Below, one piece after another: positions 11,446-48,641 of a DNA stretch of 59,596 nucleotides (positions are counted from its first letter, which is position 1; every line of letters starts with the position of its first letter). The DNA is from Candidatus Solincola daggyaiensis (GTDB lineage: Bacteria; Actinomycetota; Geothermincolia; Geothermincolales; RBG-13-55-18). The notes beneath the pieces were generated by a model that saw only the letters and a list, made by a program, of their open reading frames with translations, searched no databases and had not been told where the DNA came from. The translations under genes were made by a program, and so were the position numbers. The stretch is taken from assembly GCA_015711825.1 (NCBI GenBank), contig JACVJD010000003.1:1-59596 (forward strand), given 5' to 3'.

Positions 11446-11473
11446 CTCCTCTTCCTCCTTTTTCCTGTTACGC

Positions 11474-35506: not shown

Positions 35507-37966
35507 ATGAAGGTCTTCGAGCTGCTCGCCTCACAATCGGAAAAGCGCCCGTGGCTGGTGGTCATGGCGGCCGCCCTTATCACCGCCTTCCTCCTGGCCG
35601 GGTTCCCGCGCTTGAGCACCGAACTCAGCCAGGAGGCCATGATGCCCAAGCACTACGACTCCATCAAGGCCTGGGACGAGGTCAAGGACGTCTTCGGGGG
35701 CGTGTCCAGCGAGAACGTGCTCATAACCGCAGCAAGCGTCGCCGAACCGGAGATAGCGCGCGCCCTGCTGGCCATGGACCCCGCGGACGCGGTGGAGAAC
35801 GGCGTGCCGGAGGGCTCGGTGCTCGAGGTGGAGACCTACCTCGACTTCGTCAAGTACCGGCTTCCCGAGATGCTCCAGGCGATGGGGGTAACAGCGTCCA
35901 TCGACCCCGCCGCCGTTGACGACGCCTCCCTGGAGCAGTTCCTGGCCTTTTACCTCGATCCGCGTCCCCATTCGCCTTTTCTCGATCTCATGGCCGCTTT
36001 CACGGGCGGCGCCCTCGACCAGGAGGCGCGCGAGGGCATCCTGGCGGTGTTCCAGGAGAACCGCGAACAGATAGCCGGCATGGTCTCCGCCGACGGCACC
36101 GCGACCATGGTGAAGTTCCAGCTCGACCCCGATCTGAGCGAGAACGCCCTGACCGCCCTGGCCAACGACCTACAGTCCTACGTGTCAGGAAAATTATCCC
36201 ATATCGAAGGGGCGAGCGTTTACTATTCGGGAGACGCCTCCATCCAGCGCGATTCCCAGGAGTTCATGCAGAAGGAGACGAGCAAGCTCATGCTTATCGC
36301 CCTCCTCTTCGTCATGATCATCCTCTACCTGACCTTCCGGCGCTTATCGGATATCGGGTTGCCGCTGCTCATCATCATCGTGGCCATCTCCTGGATCATC
36401 GGGGTCATGGGTTGGGCGGGCATCACCTACACCACCATGAGCGTGGCCATCATGCCCCTCATGCTGGGCATCAACATCGCCTACGTCATCCACATCCTCA
36501 GCCGCTACTACGAGGAGAGGGAGGGGGGCGCAGGCGTCGATCTCTCGGCCACCACCGCGGTGAAGACGGTGGGAGTGGCCGTCTTCCTCACCGCCATCAC
36601 CACCCTCATAGGGTTCTCCTCCTTCATGATCACCGACATGCCCCCCATGCGGGATTTCGGCCTCCTATGCATGATGGGCATCGCCTTCAGCTTCCTGCTC
36701 TCCCTCACCCTCCTGCCCGCCATCATCGTCATCCGCGACCGGCGTAAGCGGGAGGAGAAACAGCGGGACCATCTGGAAAAGATGCGCAGGCGGCGGCGCG
36801 ACTCCCGCTACGGAGCGGCCATCGACAATCTGCTGGTGAGAATGGCCATGGTATCGGAGCGCAACCACTGGGCCGTCGCCTTGATCACCCTGGCGCTGGT
36901 CGCCTTCGCCGGCTTCGCGGTGTTCAACGTGAGGACGGGGGCGGACGTGAGCAAGATGATGCCCGAGGAGATGCCCAGCATGAAGGCCAACGAGATGATC
37001 ACCGACATCTTCGGGCCACAGAGCGCGGATATCATCCTGGCCAAGGGAGACGTTTACCGTCCGGAAAACCTCGCCGCCATACTGGAGCTGGAGGAGTCTA
37101 TCCCCCTGGACCCCCGCAACTACCCCGAGCGCGAGGACTACTTCGCGCGGGAGAGGATAAGCTCCATCGCCGACTACATCCTTATGGCCTCTCCCGAGGG
37201 GAAACTCCCAGACAGCAGGGAAGAGGTCATGGCCGTAGTGGAGCAGATATCCCGCCGCATGCCGGTGGAGGCCTTGGTAGGGGAAAAAGACGGCGAACAG
37301 GTGGCCATGATCATGCTCAACTCCGGCTTCCCGGAGACCGAGGACGAGATGCGGGTAAAGACGCAAATAATGCGCGATCGCTCCGCGGCGGCAGCCGACG
37401 CGTCCGGACTGAGGTTTTCCTCGACCGGGTTCACGGTGCTGGTGGCGGACCTGTTGGGGAATATCCTCCCCACCCAGCTCAAGACCTCTGGGCTGGCTCT
37501 CCTGCTCTGTGCCCTGGTGCTCATCCTGGTCTTCAAGTCCTTCGCTTACGGCATCTGCACCCTGGTGGTGGTGATATGCGGAATGGTGGCGGAGCTGGTC
37601 TTTCTCTTCGCGTTGGGATGGCCCCTGGACCTCATGACGGTAATGGTGGCCTCCCTGGTCATAGGGGCGGGCATCGACTTCGGCATCCACATCACCCACC
37701 GCTTCCGTGAGGAGAGGCATGTCAACGGCACCAGCGTGGAGGAGGCCGTCCGCAACACCGTCAAGCACGTGGGGCGCGCCTTGGTCGCAGCCGCGTTGAC
37801 CACCATGGGAGTCTTCATTATCCTGGGCCTCTCCAACATGGGGATGATGCAGCGCTTCGGCTTCACCACCGCCGTCGGCCTGCTGGGCGCTCTCCTCGGT
37901 GCCGTCCTGGTGCTGCCCAGCATCCTGGCCATCGTGGCCGGCAGGCGCGAGGGCGAGGGCTCCTAG
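35507..37966 (+). CDS. MMPL/RND-superfamily membrane transporter
   Basis: 819 aa with two repeats of a large loop followed by a TM bundle, with MMPL-like hydrophobic blocks. Confidence 0.8.
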   Translation: MKVFELLASQSEKRPWLVVMAAALITAFLLAGFPRLSTELSQEAMMPKHYDSIKAWDEVKDVFGGVSSENVLITAASVAEPEIARALLAMDPADAVENGVPEGSVLEVETYLDFVKYRLPEMLQAMGVTASIDPAAVDDASLEQFLAFYLDPRPHSPFLDLMAAFTGGALDQEAREGILAVFQENREQIAGMVSADGTATMVKFQLDPDLSENALTALANDLQSYVSGKLSHIEGASVYYSGDASIQRDSQEFMQKETSKLMLIALLFVMIILYLTFRRLSDIGLPLLIIIVAISWIIGVMGWAGITYTTMSVAIMPLMLGINIAYVIHILSRYYEEREGGAGVDLSATTAVKTVGVAVFLTAITTLIGFSSFMITDMPPMRDFGLLCMMGIAFSFLLSLTLLPAIIVIRDRRKREEKQRDHLEKMRRRRRDSRYGAAIDNLLVRMAMVSERNHWAVALITLALVAFAGFAVFNVRTGADVSKMMPEEMPSMKANEMITDIFGPQSADIILAKGDVYRPENLAAILELEESIPLDPRNYPEREDYFARERISSIADYILMASPEGKLPDSREEVMAVVEQISRRMPVEALVGEKDGEQVAMIMLNSGFPETEDEMRVKTQIMRDRSAAAADASGLRFSSTGFTVLVADLLGNILPTQLKTSGLALLLCALVLILVFKSFAYGICTLVVVICGMVAELVFLFALGWPLDLMTVMVASLVIGAGIDFGIHITHRFREERHVNGTSVEEAVRNTVKHVGRALVAAALTTMGVFIILGLSNMGMMQRFGFTTAVGLLGALLGAVLVLPSILAIVAGRREGEGS

Positions 37967-38488: not shown

Positions 38489-39484
38489 ATGGTCATAGCC
38501 CTGGCGGTGGTGTTGGCCATGGTGGCCACCACCATGATCAACTACAGCGGGTACATGCAGAAGCGCGAGCTGGACAAGCTCCCCCTTATCGGCTCGCAGA
38601 GCCCGCTTAAGACGGTCAAGGCCTTTATCTCCTGCCGCCCCTGGCTGGAGGCCCAGGGCCTGCAGTTCGCGGGCACCTTCGTCAAGGCCATCGCGGTGGG
38701 ACTCGCCCCGCTCTCCGTGGTGCAGCCCATCAACACCGCGGGCATCGCCGTGCTGGCGGTGCTGGCCATCACCAAGTTGGGAGAGCGCCCCACCCTCTCG
38801 GACTGGCTGGGGATAGGGACCATCGTGGTGGGACTGATCATGCTGGGGCGCAGCCTCATCGGGGTCCCCTCCAAAGCCTTCTCCTACAACCCTTTCGTGC
38901 TGTGGTTTTTCGTGATCTTCTTTTTCGCCGTGGCGGGCATATCCCTGCATCGCGGTATCACCAGGAAAGGAACCCAGGCGCCCAACCTCATCGCCGTGGC
39001 CTCGGGGGTGCTCATCGGGCTGACGGCGGTGATCATAAAGCTGGGGTGGAACGACTTCGGAAGCCGTTTCTGGGAGCACGGCTTCCGCCACGCCCTCCTC
39101 TCCCCCTACCTCTACCTGATCGTGCTCCTGCCCTTCGTCACCCTGGTTCTGGACCAGACCGCCATGCAGCGCGGCAAGGCCATCGTGGTCGTCCCCATCA
39201 CCACCGGCATGTCCAACCTCATCCCCATCATCATCGGCATCGTGGCCATGCACGAGCCCATGCCCAGAAGCGCGGGGATGTTCCTTTTGCGTCTGGCCTC
39301 CTTCGTGTTCATCATCGGCGGGTCCGTCGTGCTCTCCCTGCGCAAGGATGAGGGCGCGGAAAAAGAGAGGGGCGAGACACCGGGCATCGATGCCGCGGTA
39401 GATTCCCACCTGGGGTCCTCCCCCGCCCTCGCAGGCGACAGCGTAAGGAGACGCGACCGCAGGATGATTCGCGGTGGAGGCTGA
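38489..39484 (+). CDS. Polytopic membrane protein, DMT-superfamily/NIPA-like
   Basis: 331 aa, about 9 hydrophobic helices, SD GGGAGG. The family assignment is tentative. Confidence 0.55.
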   Translation: MVIALAVVLAMVATTMINYSGYMQKRELDKLPLIGSQSPLKTVKAFISCRPWLEAQGLQFAGTFVKAIAVGLAPLSVVQPINTAGIAVLAVLAITKLGERPTLSDWLGIGTIVVGLIMLGRSLIGVPSKAFSYNPFVLWFFVIFFFAVAGISLHRGITRKGTQAPNLIAVASGVLIGLTAVIIKLGWNDFGSRFWEHGFRHALLSPYLYLIVLLPFVTLVLDQTAMQRGKAIVVVPITTGMSNLIPIIIGIVAMHEPMPRSAGMFLLRLASFVFIIGGSVVLSLRKDEGAEKERGETPGIDAAVDSHLGSSPALAGDSVRRRDRRMIRGGG

Positions 39485-39675: not shown

Positions 39676-40032
39676 CTACTCGCCTTCTTCCTCGCTCTCC
39701 TCCTCGCCGACCATCTCCTCCTGCTCCTCGCCCGCTTCTTCATCGGCCGGCGTTTCCTCCACCGGCGCCTCGGAGGATATCTCCAGCCCCGCCTCCTCGG
39801 CCGGCTCCATGGATTTCCTCCAGCTCAATTTTAGCTCCAGCTTTTCCTTGTCTTTCTTTCTCTCCCCCTCCACCTCGAGCTCGACGACCTCGCCCGGCTC
39901 CAGCACCACGAACTCGTCCCCCTTGCTCAGCACCAACTTCCTCTTGCGCAGGCTTTCCAGTATGCTCTCAAGATAGCCCAGCGCCCGCTCCATCTCCACC
40001 CGACCTTCATACGAGACCTCTTTTTTCTCCAC
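39676..40032 (-). CDS. Small amphi-Trp-like protein with a ~45-aa highly acidic C-terminal tail (last gene of the GAK-like cluster)
   Basis: GTG 40032 lies 8 nt after AAAGGAGAG; the maximal ORF runs to 40086. The core EVSYEGRVEMERALGYLESI...KLELKLSW is paralogous to 44959-45240. The tail ends EEQEEMVGEEESEEEGE. Confidence 0.65.
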   Translation of the reverse strand: MEKKEVSYEGRVEMERALGYLESILESLRKRKLVLSKGDEFVVLEPGEVVELEVEGERKKDKEKLELKLSWRKSMEPAEEAGLEISSEAPVEETPADEEAGEEQEEMVGEEESEEEGE

Positions 40033-40082
40033 CTTCCTCACTCTCCTTTCATTGCCGCACACATCAACATCCGGCCGGAGAT

Positions 40083-41276
40083 TCACGCCAGCGAAAGCAG
40101 TACCTCCAGAAGCCTTCCCTCGTCCAGGTAAGGCGCGCTCTCCTCGCTCACCAGGTCGAAACCCAACACCTCTATGCCCAGCGCCCTCACCCTTTCCCGG
40201 CTCTCGCGGTCCCTGCCGTCCTCGGAACCCTCGTCGACGACGACGAACTGCAAAAGGCGGTCCGGGTCAAGACCATCCCCCGCGCTTCGAGACAGATAGG
40301 AGATCAGGCATCGCACGCGTTCCACGAGGTTCATGCCGGCCTGTTCCGGATCCCCGCCGGTATTGGGCACATACACCTTGGGGCAGCCGTTCTCGGCCAC
40401 CGCCTTTCCCACCCCCATGGGCAACAGGTTAGCCACCACGCTGGAGAAAAAACTGCCCATGGGGAAACAGATCAGGTCCGCCTGCAGTATGAGGTCCCTC
40501 ACCTTGTTCCTTATCTCCACCCGTACCGGAGTCAGGCTGCGGTTATCGGCCAGATAGATGCCGGTTACCCGGCTTCGGCTTTCCCGCGCGGCGCGGGCCA
40601 GCAGGTGCTGCCCGGCGACGCGTCCCCCATGCTCCAGCTCCGCCACCAGGGTGAGATCCTCGCTGACGACGGGCCTGACGACGCCCCTGGCCTCCACCAG
40701 CTTGGAGAAAAGGTAGAGGACGGGATCGATATGCCGGCCGTTGTTGAGGTATCCGCCGACGAGGATGAGGTTTCCCACGCTGGCGCCGCGCAGGTCGAAA
40801 TCCGCGGGCATGGCCTCGCGGAAGTAGAGCAAGTGATTGCGGATTATCTTGCGCATGGGGTCTATGACCCGCGCCACCAGCTCGTTTTTTCCCTCTATCA
40901 TCCTCTCCAGTTCGGAAAGCAGCTCCCCGTTGTCGGCCTGCTCGGGAAAACGGAAGCCGAACAAGCGGTAGACGTCCTCGTTCCCGGTGACGCCGCGGTC
41001 CGCCAGCGCCATGATGCGGTTCCTGAGGTCGCCGACGGAGAGCATGCCGAAAGCCCTTCTCAGCTCCGCGGAGCTGCCGCCTGAATCGAAGGGGGTTATG
41101 AGATGGATGGAGTTGTGGGTGTAGTCTATCAGCCGGCGGCTCAACTCCCTTAGCGCGGTGCCGCCGCTGAAAAACAGCAGCCTCGGCCCCGCCTCCGGCG
41201 CCTTCCTGCAGGCGGCGATCAGCCTTTCATCGGGAACCGGCACGGTCCTCGTGATGGTAACCATGCGTTTTTCCAT
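40083..41276 (-). CDS. CofD/YvcK-family (2-phospho-L-lactate-transferase-like) protein
   Basis: 397 aa from ATG 41276; the longer ORF-track version overlaps the upstream gene. LLFFSGGTALRE and ITPFDSGGSSAELR are family-typical. Confidence 0.75.
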   Translation of the reverse strand: MEKRMVTITRTVPVPDERLIAACRKAPEAGPRLLFFSGGTALRELSRRLIDYTHNSIHLITPFDSGGSSAELRRAFGMLSVGDLRNRIMALADRGVTGNEDVYRLFGFRFPEQADNGELLSELERMIEGKNELVARVIDPMRKIIRNHLLYFREAMPADFDLRGASVGNLILVGGYLNNGRHIDPVLYLFSKLVEARGVVRPVVSEDLTLVAELEHGGRVAGQHLLARAARESRSRVTGIYLADNRSLTPVRVEIRNKVRDLILQADLICFPMGSFFSSVVANLLPMGVGKAVAENGCPKVYVPNTGGDPEQAGMNLVERVRCLISYLSRSAGDGLDPDRLLQFVVVDEGSEDGRDRESRERVRALGIEVLGFDLVSEESAPYLDEGRLLEVLLSLA

Positions 41277-41302
41277 TCTTCCGCCTTTCAAGAAGCTCGT
41301 TC

Positions 41303-42397
41303 CTAGAGCCTCTCGCCCGCCAACATTCCCTCGCACAAGCAGGCCGCCTGTTGGAAAGCGACGGCGCCGTGGAGCTCGTAAACCGGACAGCTCCCAAGGC
41401 AAGCGATATACGCATCCCGGTCGTGCCGCACGCTTTCCGACCCTTCCCGCTGGAGGTAAAAGATGCCAGGCTCTTTCATAAAGCGGGGGAAGAGGTCTCC
41501 GCGGCTTCTCAAGTCTATCCTTCTCAGGAGTGCCGGTCCCTCCGCCGTTCTGTTCCAGTTGAGGACGACCAGGGCCCTCATCGCCACCGGCGCTGCGGCC
41601 AACCTGTCCGCGCCGAATATCTCCGCCACCATGACATCGTACTTGCGCTCGTATTCCCATAGCTCTTCCCTGCTCAGGAAGCGGCAAGCCTCCCGGTCCT
41701 CGCCCGTCAGGATGCCCTCAAGCCTCGGGCTCCCCAGGGCGGTGCCGGGGTTTATCCTCGGCATCTTGGGGATTCCTGCCATCTCCAACCTCTCCCCGGC
41801 CGGCCTCACCATCAGGCGGTCGTTGCTGACGAAAAGCGCGCCTCGCTCCATAAGGTGGAGGGCAAGGCTGGATTTGCCGCTCCCGGCCGGCCCCGCGAGG
41901 CCGATGCCCACGTCTCCGAAGGCTACGCCGGCGGCGTGGAAGAGCATATAGCCCCTGTCCAGCATCCATTGCATATAGCGGCTGTTGATGAAATTGATGA
42001 CCTGGTTGTCGTTCTGCAGGCACGGACCTAGGGCGGCGTTGATCTCCCCTCCGAAGACGAAGACCATGCCCGTGTGCTTCTTCCTGACCACCCTGCCGCC
42101 CTTAAGGTCGAGGAATTCCTCCTTGACCCTGCTCTTACCGGGGCCCGGAGGGTTGTCCCGCAGGGCGAGGGGCAGAGAGCGGGGGGGGGACTGAAAGGCG
42201 CTGACCCGTATGTCCGGCTCCCCTTCCCCGCACAGGTATGCCTCGTAGTAACCTCTAAGCCGGTCGATGAGCTCAGGGGAGTCGGCCATCACGTCGATGC
42301 GGCAGCGGTAAAAGGACAGGCGCAGGACCTCCTTCGCCTCGTTCGCGTCGCGCAAGAGAGCCAGCAGGGCCGCGGGGCTTATGTTTTCCTCAACCAT
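41303..42397 (-). CDS. HprK/P-related P-loop serine kinase-like protein
   Basis: 364 aa. GLAGPAGSGKSSLALHLMERGALFVSNDRLMV parallels the HprK/P segment G-SG-GKS..AL.L..RG..LV.DD. It overlaps the ATP-grasp stop by 8 nt. Confidence 0.7.
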   Translation of the reverse strand: MVEENISPAALLALLRDANEAKEVLRLSFYRCRIDVMADSPELIDRLRGYYEAYLCGEGEPDIRVSAFQSPPRSLPLALRDNPPGPGKSRVKEEFLDLKGGRVVRKKHTGMVFVFGGEINAALGPCLQNDNQVINFINSRYMQWMLDRGYMLFHAAGVAFGDVGIGLAGPAGSGKSSLALHLMERGALFVSNDRLMVRPAGERLEMAGIPKMPRINPGTALGSPRLEGILTGEDREACRFLSREELWEYERKYDVMVAEIFGADRLAAAPVAMRALVVLNWNRTAEGPALLRRIDLRSRGDLFPRFMKEPGIFYLQREGSESVRHDRDAYIACLGSCPVYELHGAVAFQQAACLCEGMLAGERL

Positions 42398-43292
42398 TCC
42401 CGAGAACCTCCATCGCGTACTGGGCGTATGCTCTCGCGGCGTCTATTCCGCAACCCTCCAGCAAGCCCCTGAAGCCTCCGAAGGCGGATACCTCGAACAC
42501 CATGGGACCCTCCACGGTCTCAACCAAGTCCACGCAGGTGAAATCGAGGTCGAAGACCCGCCGGGCTCGCTCCGCCGTTTCCAGCACCTCGCGGGAGGGA
42601 CGACAGTCCACGTATCTTCCGCCGGCGCGTATGGTGGTATTCCATGAGCCTTTGCCTTGAAGCCTGGCATAAGTGCCCAGGTAACGGTGGCCCAAGAATG
42701 CCACGCCCAGATCCCGTCCCGGTATGTCCACCTTCTTCTGCATATAGACGAGGGGATTCCCCGCCCTCATGAACTCCTCCAGGGCGCGCCGTCCCGCCGG
42801 ACCACGCTCCACCAGCGCCATTCCCCGCGCCCGCGAGGTGAAAAGAGGCTTAAGGACAGCAGTTCCATATTCTTCCAGCTTATCCATGAGCAGATCCGTA
42901 TCCTCCGCGACCGTGGTAGGGGGCATGGGCACGCCCGCCTTCCTCAGCGCCATGGTGCACTCCAGGCGATCGACCAGCCTCATCATCTTCTCGGGCGGAG
43001 AGAACACCCTTACCCCGCGCGAGGCGAGGAAGCTCAACACGCAGAGGCGATCGCGGAAAACGGGGGCGTACTCGCTTCCCACCTTCTTGACCATGAGGGC
43101 GTCGTATCCCGCTAGATCCTCGCCTTGGTGGAGGACCGTGCCCCGCTCGAAGTCCGTGACCACCTTGCCCATGTCGATGACCGAAACCCGGCCCGACAAG
43201 AGCTCGACTCTCGAGGCCAGCATCTCCGTCGACCAGGCCCCCGGTACGCCCACCACCGCTATTCTCCTCAATTTTCCGACCCTCCGATGCAT
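42390..43292 (-). CDS. RimK-like ATP-grasp ligase
   Basis: 300 aa with an ATP-grasp layout (central VLKPLFTSRARGMALV, C-terminal DLDFTCVDLVE). Confidence 0.75.
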   Translation of the reverse strand: MHRRVGKLRRIAVVGVPGAWSTEMLASRVELLSGRVSVIDMGKVVTDFERGTVLHQGEDLAGYDALMVKKVGSEYAPVFRDRLCVLSFLASRGVRVFSPPEKMMRLVDRLECTMALRKAGVPMPPTTVAEDTDLLMDKLEEYGTAVLKPLFTSRARGMALVERGPAGRRALEEFMRAGNPLVYMQKKVDIPGRDLGVAFLGHRYLGTYARLQGKGSWNTTIRAGGRYVDCRPSREVLETAERARRVFDLDFTCVDLVETVEGPMVFEVSAFGGFRGLLEGCGIDAARAYAQYAMEVLGNG

Positions 43293-43304
43293 AGCGCGGG
43301 CATG

Positions 43305-44954
43305 TCAATACAAAATGACCTCCACGGGAAAGCTGAACTCCTCGAGGCGGGCGCCTTGCGACGCTCGCAGCTTTTCCAGGAGATAGCAGCCCCTCTGGAA
43401 CATCGTTCCGGCGAACCTATGGTTCAACTCGAACCTCGTCGAGGTGATGAAGGCGCGGGAAAGGCCGAGGGCCAGCCGGGCCGAGAAAAGACGGTCTCCC
43501 CGCTCCTCGGCGAAGGCTTTAAAAGCCCGCAGGCTTTCCAGGCACACCGCGTCTATCCTGTTGCGAAGCGCGGGATCGAAGACGGGCAACCTGAAATTGG
43601 AGACCAGGAAAACGGCGGCGTCCTGGACGTAATCGAAATCACGGGAACGGTAAACGTCCACCAGGTATACCCTGTCGAGAAGGCGGTCATAGATAAGGTT
43701 GTCGTTGTTGAGGTCCCCGTGGACGAGGACGGAAAAAGGTGCGGGGAGAAGCTCTTGTACGGACCCGGCCTCCTCCACGAAAGCCCTGAAAGGCGGGACC
43801 TCCAGGTCTCCTATGCACAACCTCCCCCGGTCGAACTCCGGGTGCACCCGCAGAACGTCATCCAGCCTCTCCAGTAGCTGTTCAACGTAATTCACCCGCA
43901 CCGTCCCCGCCCGCAAGGTGCGCGCCCAGGCTTGAGGGATCTCGCGCAGGATGGCGGCCAGCGCCCTTCCGACCAGTTCTTCGTCGCCGCCCAGGAGTAT
44001 GCTCTGGAAGGTCTCTCCCCTCAGGTACTCGATGATCATGGAGGCGCTTTCGCCGCTCTCCTGAACGCCGAACACCCGGGGGGCCATACCGGGGTTCAGG
44101 TCGCGCCATAGCTGCAATTTATCCCGTTCAGCCAGTATCTTCTCCGCCCTTCCCTCTTTGAAGATGACGGGCTTGGCCGTTTCCCCGTGTCTCTCCTCGT
44201 CCACCAGCCCTATGCTGCACCCCGACTGCGTTTCCGCGAGCTGCCGGTAAGTGAAGGCCGCGCTTCCACCCTTCTTGACCTTGCCCACGACGGACTCCAG
44301 AGATTCCTCTATGGCCTCGTAGCTCTCAACCTTGAGCTTTTCCCCGACCACCGAGCTGATGATGGCCTCCCCGATATTCAACAACGCATCCCCCATCCTC
44401 TCCAGGTAACGGAAGATGAAGGTCGCGGTGAGCAGGTCTCCCGGGTCCGCCCCCGACCTGAGCTCCTCGAGGATGCGCGCGATAACCTCTTCGTAAAGCC
44501 TGTCTATCTCCCGTTCGCAGCGGCACAACAGGAGGGCGGTGGACACGTCGCCTTCCTCGAGGGAACGCACGATATGCCCCATGGCCCCGATTATGCTCTC
44601 GAAAAAAGCGCGATAGGGATAGCTGTGCATGAAGGACGGGTCCGACAGGTAGCGGCATTGCTCGACGATACTCACGGCGTAATCGGCGATGTGCTCGAGA
44701 TTGCCGGAGATGACCCCTATGAACCTCAAGCGGTTTATCTCCTGCTCGTCCAGCTCCGGTAGCCGGTTGGCGTGCATGTAGCATTTGTTCTCGATCACGT
44801 TCTTGAGCACGTCTATATAATCGTCTCTGCTCACCACCTTGGAGATCAGCACGGGATCCAGGCTCTCCAGCGCTGCCATCGCATGCTCGACCTGCTTGGT
44901 GGCCTCAAGAGCCATAAAGGCGAAGTTCTCGTTGATCTCTTTCCGGTAGGGCAT
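43305..44954 (-). CDS. Fusion protein: N-terminal PhoU-like domain pair plus C-terminal aminoglycoside/choline-kinase-like (APH-fold) phosphotransferase
   Basis: ATG 44954 lies 9 nt after GGAGGAAG and 4 nt after the upstream stop. The N-terminal ~215 aa has two PhoU-like repeats (NLEHIADYA; YLERMGDALLNIGEAI). The C-terminus has the kinase catalytic loop VLVHGDLNNDNLIYD and DVYRSRDFDYVQD. Confidence 0.7.
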   Translation of the reverse strand: MPYRKEINENFAFMALEATKQVEHAMAALESLDPVLISKVVSRDDYIDVLKNVIENKCYMHANRLPELDEQEINRLRFIGVISGNLEHIADYAVSIVEQCRYLSDPSFMHSYPYRAFFESIIGAMGHIVRSLEEGDVSTALLLCRCEREIDRLYEEVIARILEELRSGADPGDLLTATFIFRYLERMGDALLNIGEAIISSVVGEKLKVESYEAIEESLESVVGKVKKGGSAAFTYRQLAETQSGCSIGLVDEERHGETAKPVIFKEGRAEKILAERDKLQLWRDLNPGMAPRVFGVQESGESASMIIEYLRGETFQSILLGGDEELVGRALAAILREIPQAWARTLRAGTVRVNYVEQLLERLDDVLRVHPEFDRGRLCIGDLEVPPFRAFVEEAGSVQELLPAPFSVLVHGDLNNDNLIYDRLLDRVYLVDVYRSRDFDYVQDAAVFLVSNFRLPVFDPALRNRIDAVCLESLRAFKAFAEERGDRLFSARLALGLSRAFITSTRFELNHRFAGTMFQRGCYLLEKLRASQGARLEEFSFPVEVILY

Positions 44955-44958
44955 GAGG

Positions 44959-45240
44959 TCAATCTTCCTCCAGCGCCTCCACATAGAGGTTGCCGGCTTT
45001 GTTGCGCTCCTCTTCCCTGTCCGTCCAGCCCAGCTTGATGCTCAGCTTGACTTTGCCTCCCTTGTTCACCGCCTGTACGCCGACCTTGATCATCCCGCTC
45101 GGTTGCAGCAGGATCTCCCCCTCCTCGCTTCCCAGCCTCAACGCGCCCTTGGAGAAGCCGTCGCACACCGCCTTCAGATACCCCACCACCGCTTCGCGAT
45201 CCTGCAGCGCCTCGTACTCGAACTCCTTAAGTCTGGTCAT
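44959..45240 (-). CDS. Small amphi-Trp-like protein with acidic C-terminus
   Basis: 93 aa from ATG 45240 (SD GGAGGGG); the maximal ORF runs to 45279. EFEYEALQDREAVVGYLKAV...KLSIKLGW, ending YVEALEED. Confidence 0.65.
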   Translation of the reverse strand: MTRLKEFEYEALQDREAVVGYLKAVCDGFSKGALRLGSEEGEILLQPSGMIKVGVQAVNKGGKVKLSIKLGWTDREEERNKAGNLYVEALEED

Positions 45241-45275
45241 CCTTCCCCTCCAGGAACCGTTTCCCTTTCCCGCTT

Positions 45276-46463
45276 TCAACCCCGCAGCCTCGACTCGTAC
45301 TCCTCGATGAGAGCGGCTCTTTCCAGGCCGAAGGCTCGCATCTTCGCCTTTATCGCCGGGTCATCCCACGCCGGCTGGTAACCCACCTCCCTGCCCGCCT
45401 TCTCGGGATCCTGGTAACGAAGGTCCAGCGCCTTCTCGGACATGTGGGTGTCGTCGCCCATGAAGACCAACATCCTCTCGTCAACGGACCGGCCTTCGTT
45501 CTGGCGCATCACGTAATCGATGAGCATCTCCGTGTAACGGCGGGACTGGGGATTCCATACCTCGTAGCCGTCCACGTCGTAACCGGCCAGGAGCACGGGC
45601 CAGAACTGCTCGGGGTGCGGTACCACTATCCTCGCCCCCACGGCCCTTGCCTCCTCTAAGACCTCTTGCACCTGAAAGAAATACCGATTGGAGAAGCCGG
45701 CTTTTACTAGGGACTTGACTCCCTTCAGGAAAACAAGCGCTCTCTTTATGAGCTTACCGTCGTGCAGTTCCCTGAGTTTTCTGAAATAGCTCTCCACTAA
45801 CTTGTTCCTCAACATGAAGGGCGGCGTGTCTCTTTCGTGCCTTATTATCAGCTCCCTCAGCTTGGCCGCGTACACGCGCACGAACTGCACCAGGCTCCTG
45901 CCGGCGCCGGTCTGCAAGGCCGCCTTCTGGAGCATATCCTCCTTCGAAGGATCGACTATAGTTTCTAGATACTGGTAAAGCTGCGTCGACCTGTATTTGA
46001 AGGTGTGCGCGAGCATGGACTGCATGCGTTCCGCCCTCATGAGGCGCGTGGACTCTGCGTGTATGAGGAGCTGGATCTTCTGATCGAATTCGGGCGCGTA
46101 GCAATCCATCTCCACCCCGGCGAAGGCGCCCAAGGCCATGGCTATGTTGTGCTGGGTGGGGATCACCAGTTCGCGCTCGGCGTTGGGGAAGACCTTGTGC
46201 AATCTTTCCTCGGCCAGTTCCAGGGGGATGTATTCCGGGTGCCAGTGCACGGCAAGCACTTCCTTCTGCCGCGGGTGAATGTTTATGGGGTTGACTACGG
46301 CACCGATCTGCACAGGGGAAAGGTCGGTGGAGGTTATCTCGGCGTAAGCCCTCTCATCCCAATCAGTGATCTCGGGAGAGGGCTGGTCCGGCGCTATGAA
46401 ACTGAGTTGGTCATCGATCCTCAAGACGGCCTTCCTGGAAATATCCATTCCGGCCTGTTCCAA
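45276..46463 (-). CDS. Hypothetical protein with split PHP-like (metal-dependent phosphoesterase) motifs around a helical insert
   Basis: About 390 aa. VHWHPE (HxH), HNIAMA, IVVPHPEQFW and MGDDTH resemble the PHP motif series. The start is uncertain (TTG 46463 or ATG 46448). Confidence 0.5.
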   Translation of the reverse strand: MEQAGMDISRKAVLRIDDQLSFIAPDQPSPEITDWDERAYAEITSTDLSPVQIGAVVNPINIHPRQKEVLAVHWHPEYIPLELAEERLHKVFPNAERELVIPTQHNIAMALGAFAGVEMDCYAPEFDQKIQLLIHAESTRLMRAERMQSMLAHTFKYRSTQLYQYLETIVDPSKEDMLQKAALQTGAGRSLVQFVRVYAAKLRELIIRHERDTPPFMLRNKLVESYFRKLRELHDGKLIKRALVFLKGVKSLVKAGFSNRYFFQVQEVLEEARAVGARIVVPHPEQFWPVLLAGYDVDGYEVWNPQSRRYTEMLIDYVMRQNEGRSVDERMLVFMGDDTHMSEKALDLRYQDPEKAGREVGYQPAWDDPAIKAKMRAFGLERAALIEEYESRLRG

Positions 46464-46546
46464 ACCCCTTGCTGTGCCTGGCTCCTATTATAGGTTCGTA
46501 TGCGGATATGTTCAACGCAGGCAATGGGGTGGTCTCTAAAAGAAAA

Positions 46547-46621
46547 TGGAGCCGGTGAGAGGAATCGAACCTCCAACCAACCGCTTACAAGGCGGACGCT
46601 CTACCATTGAGCTACACCGGC
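46547..46621 (-). tRNA. tRNA-Thr (anticodon UGU), CCA encoded
   Basis: Hand-folded cloverleaf. Acceptor stem GCCGGUG/CACCGGC has 7 bp and the D stem is GCUC/GAGC. The anticodon loop is CU-UGU-AA and the T arm is GGAGG-UUCGAUU-CCUCU. The 3' end is UCCA. Confidence 0.9.
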
Positions 46622-46632
46622 CTCCCGAAGCA

Positions 46633-46661
46633 ATTATAATCCCAGACATGGGGGTCACGCC
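46633..46661 (-). promoter_or_regulatory. Candidate promoter of tRNA-Thr (perfect TATAAT 12 nt upstream; -35-like GTGACC supplied by the repeat element)
   Basis: The reverse complement of 46633-46638 is TATAAT. GTGACC (reverse complement of 46654-46659) lies 15 nt further upstream. Confidence 0.35.
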
Positions 46662-46719
46662 TCGTTTTATGTCTGGACATGGGGGTCACGCCTCGTTTTA
46701 TGTCTGAAGACATAGGGGG
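46644..46719 (+). repeat. Two tandem full copies (46644-46675, 46676-46706) plus a partial third copy of the 32-nt palindromic element
   Basis: AGACATGGGGGTCACGCCTCGTTTTATGTCTG appears twice head-to-tail, followed by AAGACATAGGGGG. Confidence 0.9.
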
Positions 46720-46732: not shown

Positions 46733-48031
46733 TCAACCCTGCAAGGTGACCTTCACCAGGTCGTGCGCCCCGTCCCGGGGAGGAGAGCACAGCGGCGCCA
46801 GGCGCTCGAAAAAGGCGTCGGGGTCGATGACCTCCTCAGGAGCGAAGACGCCGTGGCGCTCCAGGCATCCGCTTCCCAGAAGGTGCAGCCCGACGGCCAG
46901 GGGGATGCCGGTCATACCCCCCATGGATCCGGGGGGCAAGGAGGCCAACTCCGCCGCCGTGCGCGCCGCGCGGCCGTCCTTCTCACCCTCCGCATAAGCG
47001 AAGAGCATGGGGAGGGTAGCCCCTCCTTTTTTCGGCGCGCGCAGAAAACGGACGGCGTCGTCCAGCCCCATGCGCCTGCCGGCCAGCTTCCGCGCCAGCC
47101 AAGCCAACCCCTTCCTCGTCTCTTGCCACTTCGTCTGCCGTCTCCCGGGGTCGGGGGCGAGCGCCTCTATCGCCTCCTCCACCTCCCGCACCGCCTCGGC
47201 GATGCTCATGCTCCCAGCGTCTATGCCGCGCCGCAGCCAGGAGAGCAGGGCGATGACCTCCCCCGGCATGACCATGACGTTGCAGCTCGACCTCAACTGC
47301 GGGAAGCGTCGCGGCAAAGTCACGGGTTCGGGATGGCCTATGGTATAGGTCGCCCTGGCTCCGTAACCGGGGTATGGAACCGTGATTTCCTGCAGTGGCG
47401 GTACATCTATGAACTTACCGTCCTCTAGCAATCGTATGGTCCCCGACGCCTGTTTAAGCCAGTGGTCGTAGGCTGCGGAGAAAGAACCTCCCGTGCCCGG
47501 CTTCAGCTCCTCCAGCCCCTCGCGGCTCTCCTCCGATTCCCCCCAGCCCGTTATCAACGTGGACACCTTTTCCAGCGCCTCCGCGGCCTTCACCGCCAGG
47601 AGGTTGGTGATCCCGGGGCTCGCGCCCAGCCCCAGCACGGCGGTTACCCCCGCCTCCCGCGCCTCGGCGTCCATGGCAAGCATTTCCAAAGTGGGCTCCC
47701 AGTCGTCACAGATGTCGAAGTAATGGCACCCCGAGGAGATGGCGGCCTTGAGCACCGTGGGGCCGAACCTGTAGAAGGGGCCGGTGGTGTTGAGGACGGC
47801 GTCCGTCCCTTCCAGCAACCTCCCCAGTTCGTCCGCCCTGGTGATGTCCACCTTCGCCGTCGTCGCCTTCTCTCCCACCCATTTCACGGCCACCTCTTTC
47901 GCCCTCGACTCATCGAGGTCCGCCACCACGATCTCGTCCACGAAGTCGAGGGAGGCGGCCGTCCTGGCGGCGTACCGCCCCATGCCGCCCCCCGCCCCAA
48001 GGGCAACCACCCGTGCTTTCAATCCTTTCAT
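46733..48031 (-). CDS. Saccharopine-dehydrogenase-family NAD(P)-binding oxidoreductase
   Basis: 432 aa from ATG 48031. VVALGAGGGMG Rossmann motif and the TTGPFYRFG / GASPGITN family blocks. Confidence 0.8.
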   Translation of the reverse strand: MKGLKARVVALGAGGGMGRYAARTAASLDFVDEIVVADLDESRAKEVAVKWVGEKATTAKVDITRADELGRLLEGTDAVLNTTGPFYRFGPTVLKAAISSGCHYFDICDDWEPTLEMLAMDAEAREAGVTAVLGLGASPGITNLLAVKAAEALEKVSTLITGWGESEESREGLEELKPGTGGSFSAAYDHWLKQASGTIRLLEDGKFIDVPPLQEITVPYPGYGARATYTIGHPEPVTLPRRFPQLRSSCNVMVMPGEVIALLSWLRRGIDAGSMSIAEAVREVEEAIEALAPDPGRRQTKWQETRKGLAWLARKLAGRRMGLDDAVRFLRAPKKGGATLPMLFAYAEGEKDGRAARTAAELASLPPGSMGGMTGIPLAVGLHLLGSGCLERHGVFAPEEVIDPDAFFERLAPLCSPPRDGAHDLVKVTLQG

Positions 48032-48125
48032 ATGGCCTCGATCCTTTCTCCCTCCATGACGCGCGCTTCCGCCGCCGCCCCCCAGCGCACGTAGAAATGG
48101 GGTCAGGCCTTGTTCGATGTCCGGC

Positions 48126-48641
48126 TTATCCGTAGCGCATCTCATCGAGGAGACGGCGCGTCTCCTCGCCCAGCCTTTCCTCCAGGGGCACGCGCCTCCT
48201 TGCGGCTCTCTTCATCTCCTCGCGCGTCTCGTCAGCCGCCTCGTGCGCCCTCTCCAGCAGCGACGGCCCATTGATGACGCGCGCCCCGAAACCGGAGGCC
48301 AGGCCGGACAGCACGCGGTCGGAGGTGGCCACCGCCACCTCGCTCACCTCGGTCCGCGAGGACATGCGCCGGGCCGCCTTCTCGATGAAGGTATCCGCCG
48401 ACTGAGTTCTGCGTGTGAACACCACCGTGACGCCCCCGCGCTCCTCGAAGACCGGCTCGGGGTTGGGGGAACCCGCAGCGTCGAAGACCACCATGACCAG
48501 GCCGTACCGGCCCGGCGCGGCAAGAGGCATTAGCTCCCTCACCAGCCCCTCCCTGGCGGCGTCCATGTCCGACCCCACGAGGCGCGACAGCTCATGGTGC
48601 GCGTATATGAGATTGTACCCGTCCACGAGCAGCGCTCTCAT
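48126..48641 (-). CDS. yacP: NYN-domain protein YacP/Rae1-like ribonuclease
   Basis: 171 aa. MRALLVDGYNLIY start and TSDRV motif. It occupies the conserved position after rlmB. Confidence 0.8.
   Translation of the reverse strand: MRALLVDGYNLIYAHHELSRLVGSDMDAAREGLVRELMPLAAPGRYGLVMVVFDAAGSPNPEPVFEERGGVTVVFTRRTQSADTFIEKAARRMSSRTEVSEVAVATSDRVLSGLASGFGARVINGPSLLERAHEAADETREEMKRAARRRVPLEERLGEETRRLLDEMRYG

What the first reader, a model, noticed from the sequence alone, without database searches (positions are those of the whole stretch)
39676..46463. Seven-gene GAK-like cluster (ATP-grasp, amphi-Trp proteins, HprK-related kinase, CofD-like) with extra PhoU-kinase and PHP-like genes: candidate uncharacterised protein-modification system
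Seven co-directional minus-strand genes are packed with overlaps or gaps under 50 nt, directly downstream of tRNA-Thr.

Gene order:
- PHP-like protein
- small amphi-Trp-like protein
- PhoU::APH-like kinase fusion
- RimK-like ATP-grasp
- HprK/P-related P-loop kinase (GPAGSGKSS...SNDR)
- CofD/YvcK-like protein (FFSGGTA, PFDSGGSS)
- second amphi-Trp-like protein with a long acidic tail

The core combination matches what I remember as the 'GAK system' (Grasp, Amphi-Trp, Kinase, plus a CofD-like protein) defined only by gene neighbourhood in TIGRFAMs/NCBIfam. To my knowledge no substrate, product or phenotype has been reported for it.

The enzymology suggests a multi-step modification of the small proteins or of a small molecule. 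It includes two different kinases, an amide-forming ligase, a phospho-group transferase and a possible phosphoesterase, plus two tiny non-enzymatic proteins.
Basis: partly seen in the sequence, partly recalled or inferred. Interest (0 to 1): 0.85.

Follow-up and report, generated by a model that had tools for sequence, protein, structure and literature searches.

The report
Complete GAK-system operon, function unknown
This is a genuine seven-gene "GAK system" operon: two kinases, an ATP-grasp ligase, a CofD-like transferase, a phosphoesterase and two tiny Trp-containing proteins. The system is conserved across many bacterial phyla and named in databases, but nobody has worked out what it does.

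Summary
Seven tightly packed minus-strand genes (39676-46463) lie 83 nt downstream of tRNA-Thr.

- **Family tests:** four NCBIfam GAK models hit above their curated cutoffs: amphi-Trp twice, HprK-related kinase B, GAK ATP-grasp and GAK CofD-like. The fifth model (XXXCH domain) is absent here and is accessory elsewhere (26 of 86 loci).
- **The "extra" genes are core:** among 65 related loci with enough downstream sequence, amphi-Trp occurs in 65, PhoU-APH kinase in 64, ATP-grasp in 60, HprK-B in 58, but CofD-like in only 38.
- **g1:** it has no Pfam or NCBIfam family, but it folds (pLDDT 90) like PHP phosphoesterases of the RNase AM type, and its invariant residues fit a PHP metal site.
- **Rhodobacterales variant:** g1 is replaced by a histidine phosphatase plus a metallophosphoesterase. 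The system therefore seems to need a phosphoesterase of some kind.
- **Status:** no published function was found. It is not in PADLOC and not on viral contigs.

Most likely mechanism (inferred, not shown): a PhoU-gated cycle of phosphorylation, ligation and dephosphorylation centred on the amphi-Trp proteins. No hydroxyl residue or C-terminus is conserved in those proteins, so a small-molecule pathway remains a serious rival. This is a new member of a known but uncharacterised kind.

The parts
46487..46515 (-). Sigma-70-like promoter candidate (TTGAAC, 17-nt spacer, TATAAT; 10 of 12 matches) between tRNA-Thr and g1
   Evidence: This is a consensus match only. The number of such sites in the region (2) is not above the shuffled expectation (1.7), so only its position speaks for it.
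45276..46463 (-). g1: PHP-like metal-dependent phosphoesterase (395 aa; a likelier start is ATG 46448). It has a helical insertion of about 120 aa (residues 138-256) and belongs to no Pfam or NCBIfam family.
   Evidence: No family hit. More than 1,515 homologues, about 50% identical across phyla. AF2 pLDDT 90.2. The only significant Foldseek matches are PHP phosphoesterases 3e0f, 3o0f and 9etk (RNase AM), E 8e-5 to 1.6e-4. Invariant H73-x-H75, H105, E118/D120, H135, H283 and D338-x-H340 sit at or just after predicted strand ends.
44959..45279 (-). g2: amphi-Trp protein, type A (likely 93 aa from ATG 45240, which has a GGAGGGG ribosome-binding site). It is the universal small-protein partner. 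It carries the N-terminal F-x-x-E-(S/A)-L-Q-D motif and an invariant Trp.
   Evidence: TIGR04354 64.4 bits against cutoff 31, and PF20068. Present between g1 and g3 in 65 of 65 loci. Conservation figures. Start site.
43305..44984 (-). g3: fusion of PhoU (two repeats) with an APH / protein-kinase-like kinase (likely 549 aa from ATG 44954)
   Evidence: Pfam PhoU 84 bits and APH 42 bits. PDB PhoU structures 1xwm and 1t72 match residues 15-218. Invariant K, E, HGDxNxDN and D catalytic motifs. Present in 64 of 65 loci. Full-length 30%-identical orthologue in the Rhodobacterales variant.
42390..43292 (-). g4: GAK-system ATP-grasp ligase (RimK / MptN / LysX-like)
   Evidence: TIGR04356 388 bits against cutoff 300. 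Next best are MptN 126, the RimK family 106 and LysX 88 bits, all below their cutoffs. Motifs are conserved across 76 homologues.
41303..42397 (-). g5: HprK-related kinase B (P-loop kinase; GxxGxGKS plus an invariant SNDR)
   Evidence: TIGR04355 413 bits against cutoff 200. Weak PDB matches to HPr kinase/phosphorylase in the P-loop region. Conservation.
40083..41276 (-). g6: GAK-system CofD-like protein (397 aa from ATG 41276; the mechanical ORF extends to 41687)
   Evidence: TIGR04357 503 bits against cutoff 340, and Pfam CofD 123 bits. Present in only 38 of 65 related loci. Start site.
39676..40086 (-). g7: amphi-Trp protein, type B, with an acidic disordered tail (likely 118 aa from GTG 40032)
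   Evidence: TIGR04354 64.0 bits. The type B consensus is YLExL...KKxKEK...ELSW...LxIS..P. Tails are 21-144 aa with net charge from -24 to +3, and the last residue is not conserved.

Best explanation
Identity (about 0.95 confidence): this is a complete, intact operon of the 'GAK system'. That system was defined only computationally, by the NCBIfam/TIGRFAM models TIGR04354-04358. In practice it is a self-contained module with this gene order: PHP-like phosphoesterase, amphi-Trp A, PhoU-gated kinase, ATP-grasp, HprK-like kinase, optionally a CofD-like protein, and amphi-Trp B.

Mechanism (about 0.35 confidence, inferred): the enzymes run a phosphate-status-gated covalent cycle on, or together with, their own amphi-Trp proteins. 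The cluster looks like two sub-modules.

(i) g1-g2-g3 form a writer / eraser / target triad.
- Writer: the PhoU-regulated protein-kinase-like kinase.
- Eraser: the PHP-like phosphoesterase.
- Target or adaptor: amphi-Trp A, through its flexible, conserved N-terminal F-x-x-E-S-L-Q-D segment.

(ii) g4-g5-(g6)-g7 form the second sub-module.
- The HprK-like P-loop kinase phosphorylates a hydroxyl group.
- The CofD-like enzyme, where present, makes or reads a nucleotide-diphospho or phosphodiester-linked group.
- The ATP-grasp ligase adds an amino acid, probably glutamate, to a carboxylate.
- Amphi-Trp B acts as partner, substrate or scaffold.

Shown: gene content, family membership, synteny, preserved catalytic motifs, and interchangeability of the phosphoesterase. 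Not shown: any substrate, product or phenotype.
For: - **Membership:** four GAK HMMs score above cutoff.
- **Synteny across at least 10 phyla:** among 65 loci with enough downstream DNA, amphi-Trp occurs in 65, g3 in 64, g4 in 60, g5 in 58 and g6 in 38. Four of four g5-anchored loci show the same seven-gene order.
- **Translational coupling:** genes overlap or are closely spaced, with ribosome-binding sites.
- **Active enzymes:** all keep near-invariant catalytic motifs.
- **Minimal triad:** g1-amphiTrp-g3 stands alone in 3 loci.
- **Phosphoesterase is essential but replaceable:** Rhodobacterales loci keep PhoU-APH, ATP-grasp, HprK-B and amphi-Trp A but swap g1 for His_Phos_1 plus Metallophos, with NUDIX added in one.
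- **Links between enzymes and small proteins:** there is a single-ORF g5::amphi-Trp fusion in L018 and a g5::g6 fusion in L055. XXXCH proteins carry amphi-Trp-like N-terminal halves.
- **Type A is universal:** type A amphi-Trp, with its N-terminal motif in a predicted disordered segment, is the one small protein kept in every variant.
- **Precedents:** HprK homologues phosphorylate a Ser of small peptides, and the phosphate is then elaborated by a nucleotidyltransferase (PMC8498205). From my own knowledge, HprK/P phosphorylates the small protein HPr or Crh, and RimK and LysX ligate onto the small acidic proteins S6 and LysW.
- **Phosphate link:** g3 carries a PhoU domain.
Against: - No Ser, Thr or Tyr is invariant across the amphi-Trp proteins; only L, P and W exceed 90% in the joint alignment.
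- The best candidate Ser, 90% conserved in type A, is Ala in this window's g2.
- C-termini are not conserved, and type B tails range from strongly acidic to basic. This argues against RimK- or LysW-style C-terminal chemistry.
- The closest characterised relative of the ATP-grasp by score is MptN, a cofactor glutamyl ligase. CofD itself acts on small molecules.
- The CofD-like gene is missing from about 40% of loci.
- Both fusions are single observations in MAGs and could be assembly errors.
- The amphi-Trp structure prediction was poor (pLDDT 54), and no enzyme-small-protein complex could be modelled.
- Flanking genes give only a faint phosphate theme, with no family in more than 4 of 150 neighbours.
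Confidence: 0.4

Rival explanations
1. Small-molecule pathway. The enzymes build or tailor a phosphodiester- and glutamate-containing metabolite or cofactor tail. The logic would parallel F420 (CofC/CofD, then CofE/CofF), tetrahydrosarcinapterin (MptN) or the cobalamin nucleotide loop (kinase, transferase, phosphatase). The amphi-Trp proteins would be non-covalent binders, carriers or storage proteins, possibly stacking the ligand on the invariant Trp as dodecin does.
For: - The best characterised relatives of the ATP-grasp are the cofactor glutamyl ligase MptN (126 bits) and, distantly, CofF.
- The CofD family makes phosphodiesters from NDP-activated donors. Its relative GlmR binds or makes UDP-GlcNAc (PMC7525490, PMC10128056).
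- g1's structural neighbours are enzymes that act on nucleotides (RNase AM and BAD_1165).
- The Rhodobacterales variant adds NUDIX, His_Phos_1 and Metallophos, all typical small-molecule phosphoesterases.
- In amphi-Trp, only Trp and structural residues are invariant. That fits a binder better than a covalent substrate.
- An amphi-Trp protein is among the 20 most abundant proteins of Dissulfuribacter thermophilus, which suits a storage or buffer protein.
Against: - The cluster has no gene for a core scaffold (pterin, flavin or sugar biosynthesis), and no conserved flanking pathway.
- The CofD-like gene is dispensable in about 40% of loci.
- Two or three amphi-Trp paralogues per operon, a g5::amphi-Trp fusion and tight translational coupling suggest enzyme-small-protein complexes.
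- A PhoU-fused protein-kinase-like kinase is unusual for a biosynthetic pathway.
- It is unknown whether the abundant Dissulfuribacter protein is encoded in a GAK cluster.
Confidence: 0.3
2. Purely regulatory signalling module. It would be analogous to the Firmicute network of HPr/Crh, HprK/P, YvcJ and GlmR(YvcK). The amphi-Trp proteins would be phospho-switch adaptors. The CofD-like protein would sense a nucleotide-sugar rather than act as an enzyme. PhoU would feed in phosphate status. The output would be control of some unlinked metabolic target.
For: - GlmR/YvcK works largely as a UDP-GlcNAc-responsive regulator that partners with a P-loop NTPase (PMC7525490).
- From my own knowledge, B. 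subtilis yvcK lies in one operon with crh, a small substrate of HprK.
- PhoU domains are regulatory.
- A kinase plus a phosphoesterase plus a small protein is the classic switch layout, and this triad stands alone in 3 loci.
- The CofD-like component is optional.
Against: - An ATP-grasp ligase with fully conserved catalytic motifs is present in 60 of 65 loci and has no role in a simple phospho-switch.
- No invariant phospho-acceptor residue exists.
- No DNA-binding or other output domain is present, and no conserved target gene lies nearby.
Confidence: 0.15
3. Anti-phage defence or another conflict system carried on a mobile island next to a tRNA gene.
For: - Flanking genes are not conserved between genomes.
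- The cluster sits next to a tRNA gene.
- g3 has a weak sub-threshold hit to TCAD9, a 'ternary complex associated domain' (18.7 bits against cutoff 40).
- A variant lies on Rhodobacterales plasmids or chromids.
Against: - No PADLOC model hits any of the seven proteins.
- No g1 relative was found in 2.9 million viral contigs.
- There is no nuclease, protease, pore-forming or NAD-degrading effector.
- Neighbours are housekeeping genes (RlmB, GltX-type tRNA synthetase, transporters).
- Cluster GC is 0.61 against 0.635 for the window.
- The plasmids concerned are typed as non-mobilizable.
Confidence: 0.03

Closest known systems
GAK system (NCBIfam/TIGRFAM TIGR04354 amphi-Trp, TIGR04355 HprK-related kinase B, TIGR04356 GAK ATP-grasp, TIGR04357 GAK CofD-like, TIGR04358 XXXCH domain)
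   Same: Four of the five models hit above cutoff, in one co-directional operon. This is the family the cluster belongs to.
   Different: - The database definition has no model for the PHP-like g1 or the PhoU-APH g3. Both are near-universal partners.
- The XXXCH protein is absent here.
- The name-giving CofD-like member is the least constant part.
- No function is attached to the family.
HPr kinase/phosphorylase with HPr/Crh, and the HprK homologues of lasso-peptide clusters (paeninodin, pseudomycoidin)
   Same: A P-loop kinase of the same superfamily is paired with a small protein or peptide. In lasso clusters the phospho-Ser is further elaborated through a nucleotidyltransferase (PMC8498205). 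That parallels the pairing of HprK-B with the CofD-like protein.
   Different: - g5 scores only 25 bits on the HprK/P model, against a cutoff of 240.
- The amphi-Trp proteins are unrelated to HPr, have no invariant Ser, and there is no RiPP machinery (no lasso cyclase or protease).
RimK/S6 and LysX/LysW (ATP-grasp ligases acting on small acidic proteins); MptN and CofF (ATP-grasp glutamyl ligases acting on cofactors)
   Same: g4 is a RimK-family ATP-grasp (MptN 126, RimK family 106, LysX 88 bits). It is encoded beside small proteins that often carry acidic tails.
   Different: - All of these models score below their cutoffs.
- The C-termini of amphi-Trp proteins are not conserved, unlike S6 (-EE) or LysW (C-terminal Glu).
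- No downstream LysZ/Y/J/K-type enzymes are present.
CofD (F420 2-phospho-L-lactate transferase) and YvcK/GlmR
   Same: g6 has the CofD fold family (Pfam CofD 123 bits) and conserved GGT and DSGGSS motifs. The chemistry would involve nucleotide-diphospho donors.
   Different: - It is below the YvcK-family cutoff (106 against 196 bits).
- There are no CofC/CofE genes and no YvcJ/WhiA partners.
- It is optional within the system.
PHP-family phosphoesterases of the TrpH / RNase AM / BAD_1165 type
   Same: g1's only significant structural matches. The HxH...H...E...H...H...DxH ligand pattern lies at strand ends, with a helical insertion in the barrel.
   Different: - No sequence-level match: no Pfam PHP hit, no hit for the profile against PDB, and hhalign E = 0.06.
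- TM-scores are only 0.34-0.51.
- The substrate is unknown.

Membership tests
GAK system (NCBIfam gene-neighbourhood definition) | Amphi-Trp domain protein(s), TIGR04354 | tested here: met
   g2 scores 64.4 bits and g7 64.0 bits, against a cutoff of 31.
GAK system (NCBIfam gene-neighbourhood definition) | HprK-related kinase B, TIGR04355 | tested here: met
   g5 scores 413.3 bits against a cutoff of 200.
GAK system (NCBIfam gene-neighbourhood definition) | GAK ATP-grasp enzyme, TIGR04356 | tested here: met
   g4 scores 388 bits against a cutoff of 300.
GAK system (NCBIfam gene-neighbourhood definition) | GAK CofD-like protein, TIGR04357 | tested here: met
   g6 scores 503.3 bits against a cutoff of 340.
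GAK system (NCBIfam gene-neighbourhood definition) | XXXCH-domain protein, TIGR04358 | tested here: not met
   A six-frame hmmsearch of the whole window found none. The protein is accessory: it is present in 26 of 86 related loci. Its absence therefore does not exclude membership.
GAK system (NCBIfam gene-neighbourhood definition) | Members contiguous and co-directional, and syntenic in other genomes | tested here: met
PHP phosphoesterase superfamily (for g1) | Match to the Pfam PHP model or another sequence profile | tested here: not met
   No Pfam or NCBIfam hit at E <= 0.01. The A1 profile against PDB sequences found nothing. hhalign against E. coli RNase AM gave E = 0.06, aligning only the PHPEQF/AHPGRY strand.
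PHP phosphoesterase superfamily (for g1) | PHP-type barrel fold | tested here: met
   Foldseek gives probability 1.00 and E 8e-5 to 1.6e-4 to 3e0f, 3o0f and 9etk, with nothing else significant. TM-scores are modest at 0.34-0.51. The model has pLDDT 90.2.
PHP phosphoesterase superfamily (for g1) | His/Asp/Glu metal ligands (HxH, H, E, H, H, DxH) at strand C-termini | tested here: met
   H73, H75, H105, E118/D120, H135, H283, D338 and H340 are invariant in 30 sequences. They map to the ends of predicted strands 68-71, 97-100, 114-123, 128-137, 278-281 and 332-335. Spatial clustering could not be checked because no coordinates were available.
PHP phosphoesterase superfamily (for g1) | Metal-dependent phosphoesterase activity | not testable with these tools
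   Needs an enzyme assay. Indirect support: other phosphoesterases replace g1 in Rhodobacterales.
PhoU (phosphate signalling protein) | Two PhoU repeats, or the full-length PhoU equivalog | tested here: inconclusive
   Pfam PhoU scores 84 bits with 2 stretches, and PDB PhoU structures match residues 15-218. But TIGR02135 scores 73.6, below its cutoff of 130. g3 has a PhoU domain; it is not the PhoU protein.
APH / protein-kinase-like phosphotransferases (g3 C-terminal domain) | Pfam APH match plus the catalytic Lys, Glu, HxDxxxxN loop and metal-binding Asp | tested here: met
   APH scores 42.2 bits against a cutoff of 23.2. K42, E52, H188-G-D190...N195 and D209 are invariant in 21 sequences. 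It is not an APH(3') resistance enzyme: 20 bits against a cutoff of 205.
HPr kinase/phosphorylase proper | TIGR00679 equivalog score | tested here: not met
   25 bits against a cutoff of 240. Only the P-loop region aligns to HprK structures.
RimK / LysX / MptN equivalogs | Score above the family cutoff | tested here: not met
   MptN 125.8 against 350, the RimK family 105.6 against 143.4, and LysX 88.5 against 275.6.
YvcK/GlmR subfamily of CofD-like proteins | TIGR01826 score above cutoff | tested here: not met
   106.1 bits against a cutoff of 196. The Pfam CofD superfamily match is met, at 122.8 against 30.
Known anti-phage defence systems (PADLOC) | Any component matching a PADLOC model | tested here: not met
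   Zero hits for all seven proteins.

The most novel reading that the evidence does not exclude
The GAK operon encodes a previously undescribed, phosphate-gated small-protein modification or carrier system. Dedicated amphi-Trp proteins would be covalently decorated by two unrelated kinases, a CofD-type transferase and an ATP-grasp ligase. The decoration would be a phospho group, a phosphodiester-linked group and/or a glutamyl group, and a PHP-type phosphoesterase would reset it. This would be a new bacterial post-translational 'tagging' chemistry, found in sulfate reducers, Planctomycetota, Nitrospinota and other phyla.
Probability: 0.3. Interest if true: 0.8.

Novelty: new member of a known kind. 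Interest (0 to 1): 0.55.

Why it matters
The GAK system is a conserved multi-enzyme operon that has had database names since the TIGRFAM era but, as far as I could find, no experiment behind them.

- **Spread:** g1-family matches occur at 478 places in a one-genome-per-species collection, across at least 10 phyla.
- **Unusual chemistry:** it combines enzyme types that together suggest something new: a PhoU-fused kinase, an HprK-like kinase, a CofD-like transferase, a RimK-like ligase and a PHP-like esterase.
- **Sharper target from this work:**
  - The true core is the PhoU-kinase, ATP-grasp, HprK-B, amphi-Trp A and a replaceable phosphoesterase.
  - The orphan g1 family now has a PHP-like fold assignment.
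  - The conserved N-terminal motif of amphi-Trp A is a specific candidate interaction or modification site.
- **Where to test it:** cultivable hosts include Pseudodesulfovibrio mercurii, Desulfocurvibacter africanus and Tritonibacter mobilis.

This particular window adds one more instance rather than a new kind of system.

Tried and rejected
1. **Sequence-level link of g1 to PHP.** Pfam and NCBIfam gave nothing, phmmer and the profile against PDB gave nothing, and hhalign against E. coli RNase AM gave E = 0.06. Only the fold search worked.
2. **Amphi-Trp structure.** The word-indexed homologue search returned only 2 proteins. The 3-sequence AF2 model was poor, at pLDDT 54, and its Foldseek search gave nothing below E = 0.1. 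A 62-sequence profile against PDB hit only de novo designed Ig-like proteins, which I treat as generic beta-hairpin similarity and not homology.
3. **C-terminal glutamylation or a LysW-style carrier.** I consider this unlikely as a general feature. The last residues and tails of both amphi-Trp types are not conserved, even though the window's g7 does end in ...EEEGE.
4. **A conserved phospho-Ser in the 'ISS.EP' segment of type B.** The Ser frequencies are only about 40-50%.
5. **Functional hints from neighbours.** A Pfam tally of 150 nearest flanking genes showed no family in more than 4. The phosphate theme (PHO4/PhoU_div in D. africanus, PstS-like, LMWPc, Metallophos, PhoH) is anecdotal.
6. 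**Defence system.** No PADLOC hit and no hit on viral contigs.
7. **'ScmC' (PF27840).** This family is seen on some g5 homologues, but the literature search found nothing relevant.
8. **Supplements of the Dissulfuribacter proteomics paper.** These are not held in the library, so I could not tell whether the abundant amphi-Trp protein sits in a GAK cluster.

Full report
**1. Observation**

The seven minus-strand ORFs are present exactly as described.

| Gene | Coordinates | Length |
|---|---|---|
| g1 | 45276-46463 | 395 aa |
| g2 | 44959-45279 | 106 aa |
| g3 | 43305-44984 | 559 aa |
| g4 | 42390-43292 | 300 aa |
| g5 | 41303-42397 | 364 aa |
| g6 | 40083-41276 | 397 aa from ATG 41276 (the stop-to-stop ORF is longer) |
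| g7 | 39676-40086 | 136 aa |

- Neighbouring genes overlap by 4-26 nt or are separated by 50 nt or less.
- Starts preceded by GGAGG-like sites that agree with homologue lengths are ATG 45240 (g2), ATG 44954 (g3), ATG 42397 (g5) and GTG 40032 (g7).
- tRNA-Thr(TGT) lies at 46547-46621 on the same strand.
- A 10-of-12 sigma-70-like site sits at 46515-46487, between the tRNA and g1. Its position is suggestive, but the site count is not above chance.

**2.

| Gene | Model | Score (bits) | Cutoff |
|---|---|---|---|
| g2 | amphi-Trp, TIGR04354 | 64.4 | 31 |
| g7 | amphi-Trp, TIGR04354 | 64.0 | 31 |
| g5 | HprK-related kinase B, TIGR04355 | 413 | 200 |
| g4 | GAK ATP-grasp, TIGR04356 | 388 | 300 |
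| g6 | GAK CofD-like, TIGR04357 | 503 | 340 |

- Pfam agrees: Amphi-Trp, RimK, CofD, and PhoU x2 plus APH for g3.
- g1 matches no Pfam or NCBIfam family.
- A fifth GAK model, the TIGR04358 XXXCH domain, was recognised in related loci. It is absent from all six frames of the window.
- No PADLOC defence model hits any of the seven proteins.

**3. Synteny**

g1 belongs to a large orphan family. More than 1,515 database proteins match it, about 50% identical across phyla. A scan of one genome per species found 478 places encoding a g1 relative, and 80 loci were fetched. The loci come from Thermodesulfobacteriota, Planctomycetota (Phycisphaerae), Nitrospinota, Atribacterota, Ignavibacteria, Zixibacteria, GN15, Eisenbacteria, Spirochaetia, Geothermincola and others.

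I used HMMs built from the window proteins and applied them to six-frame ORFs. Sixty-five loci had at least 6.5 kb downstream of g1.

| Component | Loci with it (of 65) |
|---|---|
| amphi-Trp | 65 |
| g3 | 64 |
| g4 | 60 |
| g5 | 58 |
| g6 | 38 |

- The commonest order is g1-aT-g3-g4-g5-g6-aT (22 loci).
- The same order without g6 occurs in 12 loci, mostly Planctomycetota.
- Three loci have only g1-aT-g3.
- In the Desulfatiglandales/NaphS2 loci L057 and L072, g6-aT moves as a unit to a position between g3 and g4. L022 has g6 there, but no second amphi-Trp was called.

These loci were anchored on g1, so I also anchored on g5. All four contexts examined show the same seven-gene order. They come from Desulfobulbia, Pseudodesulfovibrio mercurii, Desulfatiferula and Zixibacteria.

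The XXXCH protein occurs in 26 of 86 loci, usually immediately upstream of g1. Its N-terminal half is a degenerate amphi-Trp-like domain in several cases.

**4. A divergent variant**

A tblastn of g5 against plasmids found Rhodobacterales replicons. Their RefSeq annotation and my Pfam scans give this order:

- PhoU-APH kinase, which is 30% identical to g3 over its full length;
- GAK ATP-grasp;
- HprK-related kinase B;
- histidine-phosphatase-family protein;
- metallophosphoesterase;
- amphi-Trp.

One record also has a NUDIX gene and a divergently transcribed GAK CofD-like gene. g1 is absent from these loci. The single amphi-Trp is type A and keeps the N-terminal HESLQD/HNSLQD motif.

The invariant core is therefore the PhoU-kinase, ATP-grasp, HprK-B, amphi-Trp A and some phosphoesterase. 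The replacement of g1 by other phosphoesterases supports an esterase role for it.

**5. What g1 is**

- AlphaFold2 with a 30-sequence alignment gave pLDDT 90.2 and pTM 0.86.
- The only significant Foldseek PDB matches are PHP-family phosphoesterases: BAD_1165 (3e0f, 3o0f) and Vibrio cholerae RNase AM (9etk). Probability is 1.00, E is 8e-5 to 1.6e-4, and TM-scores are 0.34-0.51.
- Invariant residues H73-x-H75, H105, E118/D120, H135, H283 and D338-x-H340 fall at or just after the predicted strands. That is the PHP ligand pattern.
- A helical insertion of about 120 residues (138-256) interrupts the barrel.
- Sequence-profile methods do not see the relationship.

**6. The other enzymes**

- **g3:** a complete PhoU (PDB 1xwm and 1t72 match residues 15-218) fused to a divergent protein-kinase-like domain. 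Its Lys, Glu, HGDxNxDN and Asp motifs are invariant. Among solved structures it is only remotely similar to APH(3').
- **g4, g5, g6:** all keep near-invariant nucleotide-binding and catalytic motifs across 45-76 homologues. All the enzymes look active.

**7. The amphi-Trp proteins**

There are two paralogue classes.

- **Type A** lies between g1 and g3.
  - It has a near-invariant N-terminal segment: F 99%, E 79%, S 90%, L 73%, Q 87%, D 96%.
  - Trp is 100% conserved.
  - The window's g2 has Ala at the Ser position.
- **Type B** is the last gene.
  - Its consensus is YLExL...KKxKEK...ELSW...LxIS..P.
  - A tail of 21-144 aa follows, with net charge from -24 to +3.
- Neither class has a conserved C-terminal residue.
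- In the joint alignment only L, P and W exceed 90%.
- The AF2 model is weak (pLDDT 54). It suggests a disordered N-terminus, one amphipathic helix and a four-stranded meander carrying the Trp.
- No solved relative was found.
- The family is modest in size: 1,528 representatives at 50% identity, all of them small proteins.
- Two single-ORF fusions were seen, g5::amphi-Trp in L018 and g5::g6 in L055. Both are in MAGs, so I weight them lightly.

**8. Literature**

- 'GAK system', the TIGR accession numbers and 'HprK-related kinase' return nothing.
- 'amphi-Trp' appears once, as one of the 20 most abundant proteins in a Dissulfuribacter thermophilus proteome.
- Searches combining PhoU, ATP-grasp and CofD, or HprK, ATP-grasp and RimK, found nothing relevant.
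- Useful precedents:
  - HprK homologues phosphorylate the C-terminal Ser of lasso precursors, and a nucleotidyltransferase then glycosylates that phosphate (PMC8498205).
  - CofD-like GlmR/YvcK binds UDP-GlcNAc and switches partners (PMC7525490). In Listeria it acts as an accessory uridyltransferase (PMC10128056).

**9. Mechanism**

Shown:
- gene membership;
- a conserved self-contained operon, with no flanking family in more than 4 of 150 neighbours;
- active-looking enzymes;
- a phosphoesterase that is required but replaceable;
- a PhoU input domain.

Inferred, and my preferred reading (about 0.35):
- The system is a phosphate-gated covalent cycle on or with the amphi-Trp proteins.
- g3, g1 and g2 act as writer, eraser and target.
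- g5, g6 and g4 add a phospho group, a phosphodiester group and an amino acid, together with g7.

The main rival (about 0.3) is a small-molecule, cofactor-tail-like pathway with amphi-Trp proteins as binders. It gains weight from the lack of any invariant acceptor residue and from the MptN/CofD/NUDIX-type enzymology. A purely regulatory module like the HPr/Crh-GlmR network (about 0.15) and a defence system (about 0.03) follow.

**10. Verdict**

It is a new instance of a known, database-named but functionally uncharacterised system.

What this analysis adds:
- a corrected core definition;
- a fold assignment for the orphan g1 family;
- the Rhodobacterales phosphoesterase-swap variant;
- specific candidate sites and hosts for experiments.

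Limits:
- ORF calling in the loci was mechanical.
- The reverse conditional, P(g1 given g5), rests on six loci.
- No complex modelling or coordinate-level check of the active site was possible.

Noticed in passing
window 46645-46707: A 31-nt unit (GACATGGGGGTCACGCCTCGTTTTATGTCTG) is repeated in tandem, with a third partial copy. It lies immediately upstream of tRNA-Thr, between the tRNA and the saccharopine-dehydrogenase-like gene at 46733-48145(-). Each copy scores as a terminator-like hairpin on the + strand.
   Followed up: partly
window 58365-59117 (-) and 59339-59596 (-): A stand-alone PhoU protein (Pfam PhoU 116 bits) lies about 12 kb from the cluster. A second PhoU-like ORF runs off the window end. 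Together they may be part of a pst/phoU locus, which is relevant because g3 carries a PhoU domain.
   Followed up: partly
window 44959-45240 (g2), residue 11 of the 93-aa form: The window's type A amphi-Trp has Ala where 90% of homologues have Ser, in the F-x-x-E-S-L-Q-D motif. Its closest database relative (P0242, 77% identical) also has Ala.
   Followed up: partly
L086 (Pseudodesulfovibrio mercurii CP003220.1) 11345-13304: Directly after the GAK cluster comes a 181-aa amphi-Trp protein, a 61-aa ORF, a ParA/MinD/CbiA-like ATPase, and another 143-aa amphi-Trp protein that overlaps the ATPase gene. This hints that amphi-Trp proteins may also work with positioning ATPases.
   Followed up: no
L080 19404-19876 (-): A tandem pair of amphi-Trp genes lies outside the GAK cluster, on the opposite strand. 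Amphi-Trp genes are therefore not confined to GAK operons.
   Followed up: no
L087 4438-4872; also 4 further loci; LMWPc in 4 of the 150 nearest neighbours: A low-molecular-weight phosphatase / ArsC-like gene (LMWPc) sits immediately upstream of g1 and overlaps its start. It is another phosphoesterase-type accessory gene.
   Followed up: partly
L001 (Desulfocurvibacter africanus) 7489-9455; L085/L086/L087 upstream regions: In D. africanus a PHO4 phosphate transporter with PhoU_div lies divergently upstream. Metallophos/5'-nucleotidase genes lie divergently upstream in three g5-anchored loci. The pooled neighbour tally did not show these as recurrent.
   Followed up: partly
PMC13490349 (Dissulfuribacter thermophilus proteome): An amphi-Trp domain protein (DITHS69_2464) is listed among the 20 most abundant proteins. 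Its genomic context could not be checked.
   Followed up: partly
window 48126-49772 (-) and 52664-54088 (-): The surroundings are housekeeping genes: a YacP-like NYN-domain protein, RlmB 23S rRNA methyltransferase, and a class I Glu/Gln-tRNA synthetase. Downstream of the cluster are an HAE3/MMPL-type RND transporter (35507-37966, +) and a DMT transporter (38489-39484, +).
   Followed up: partly
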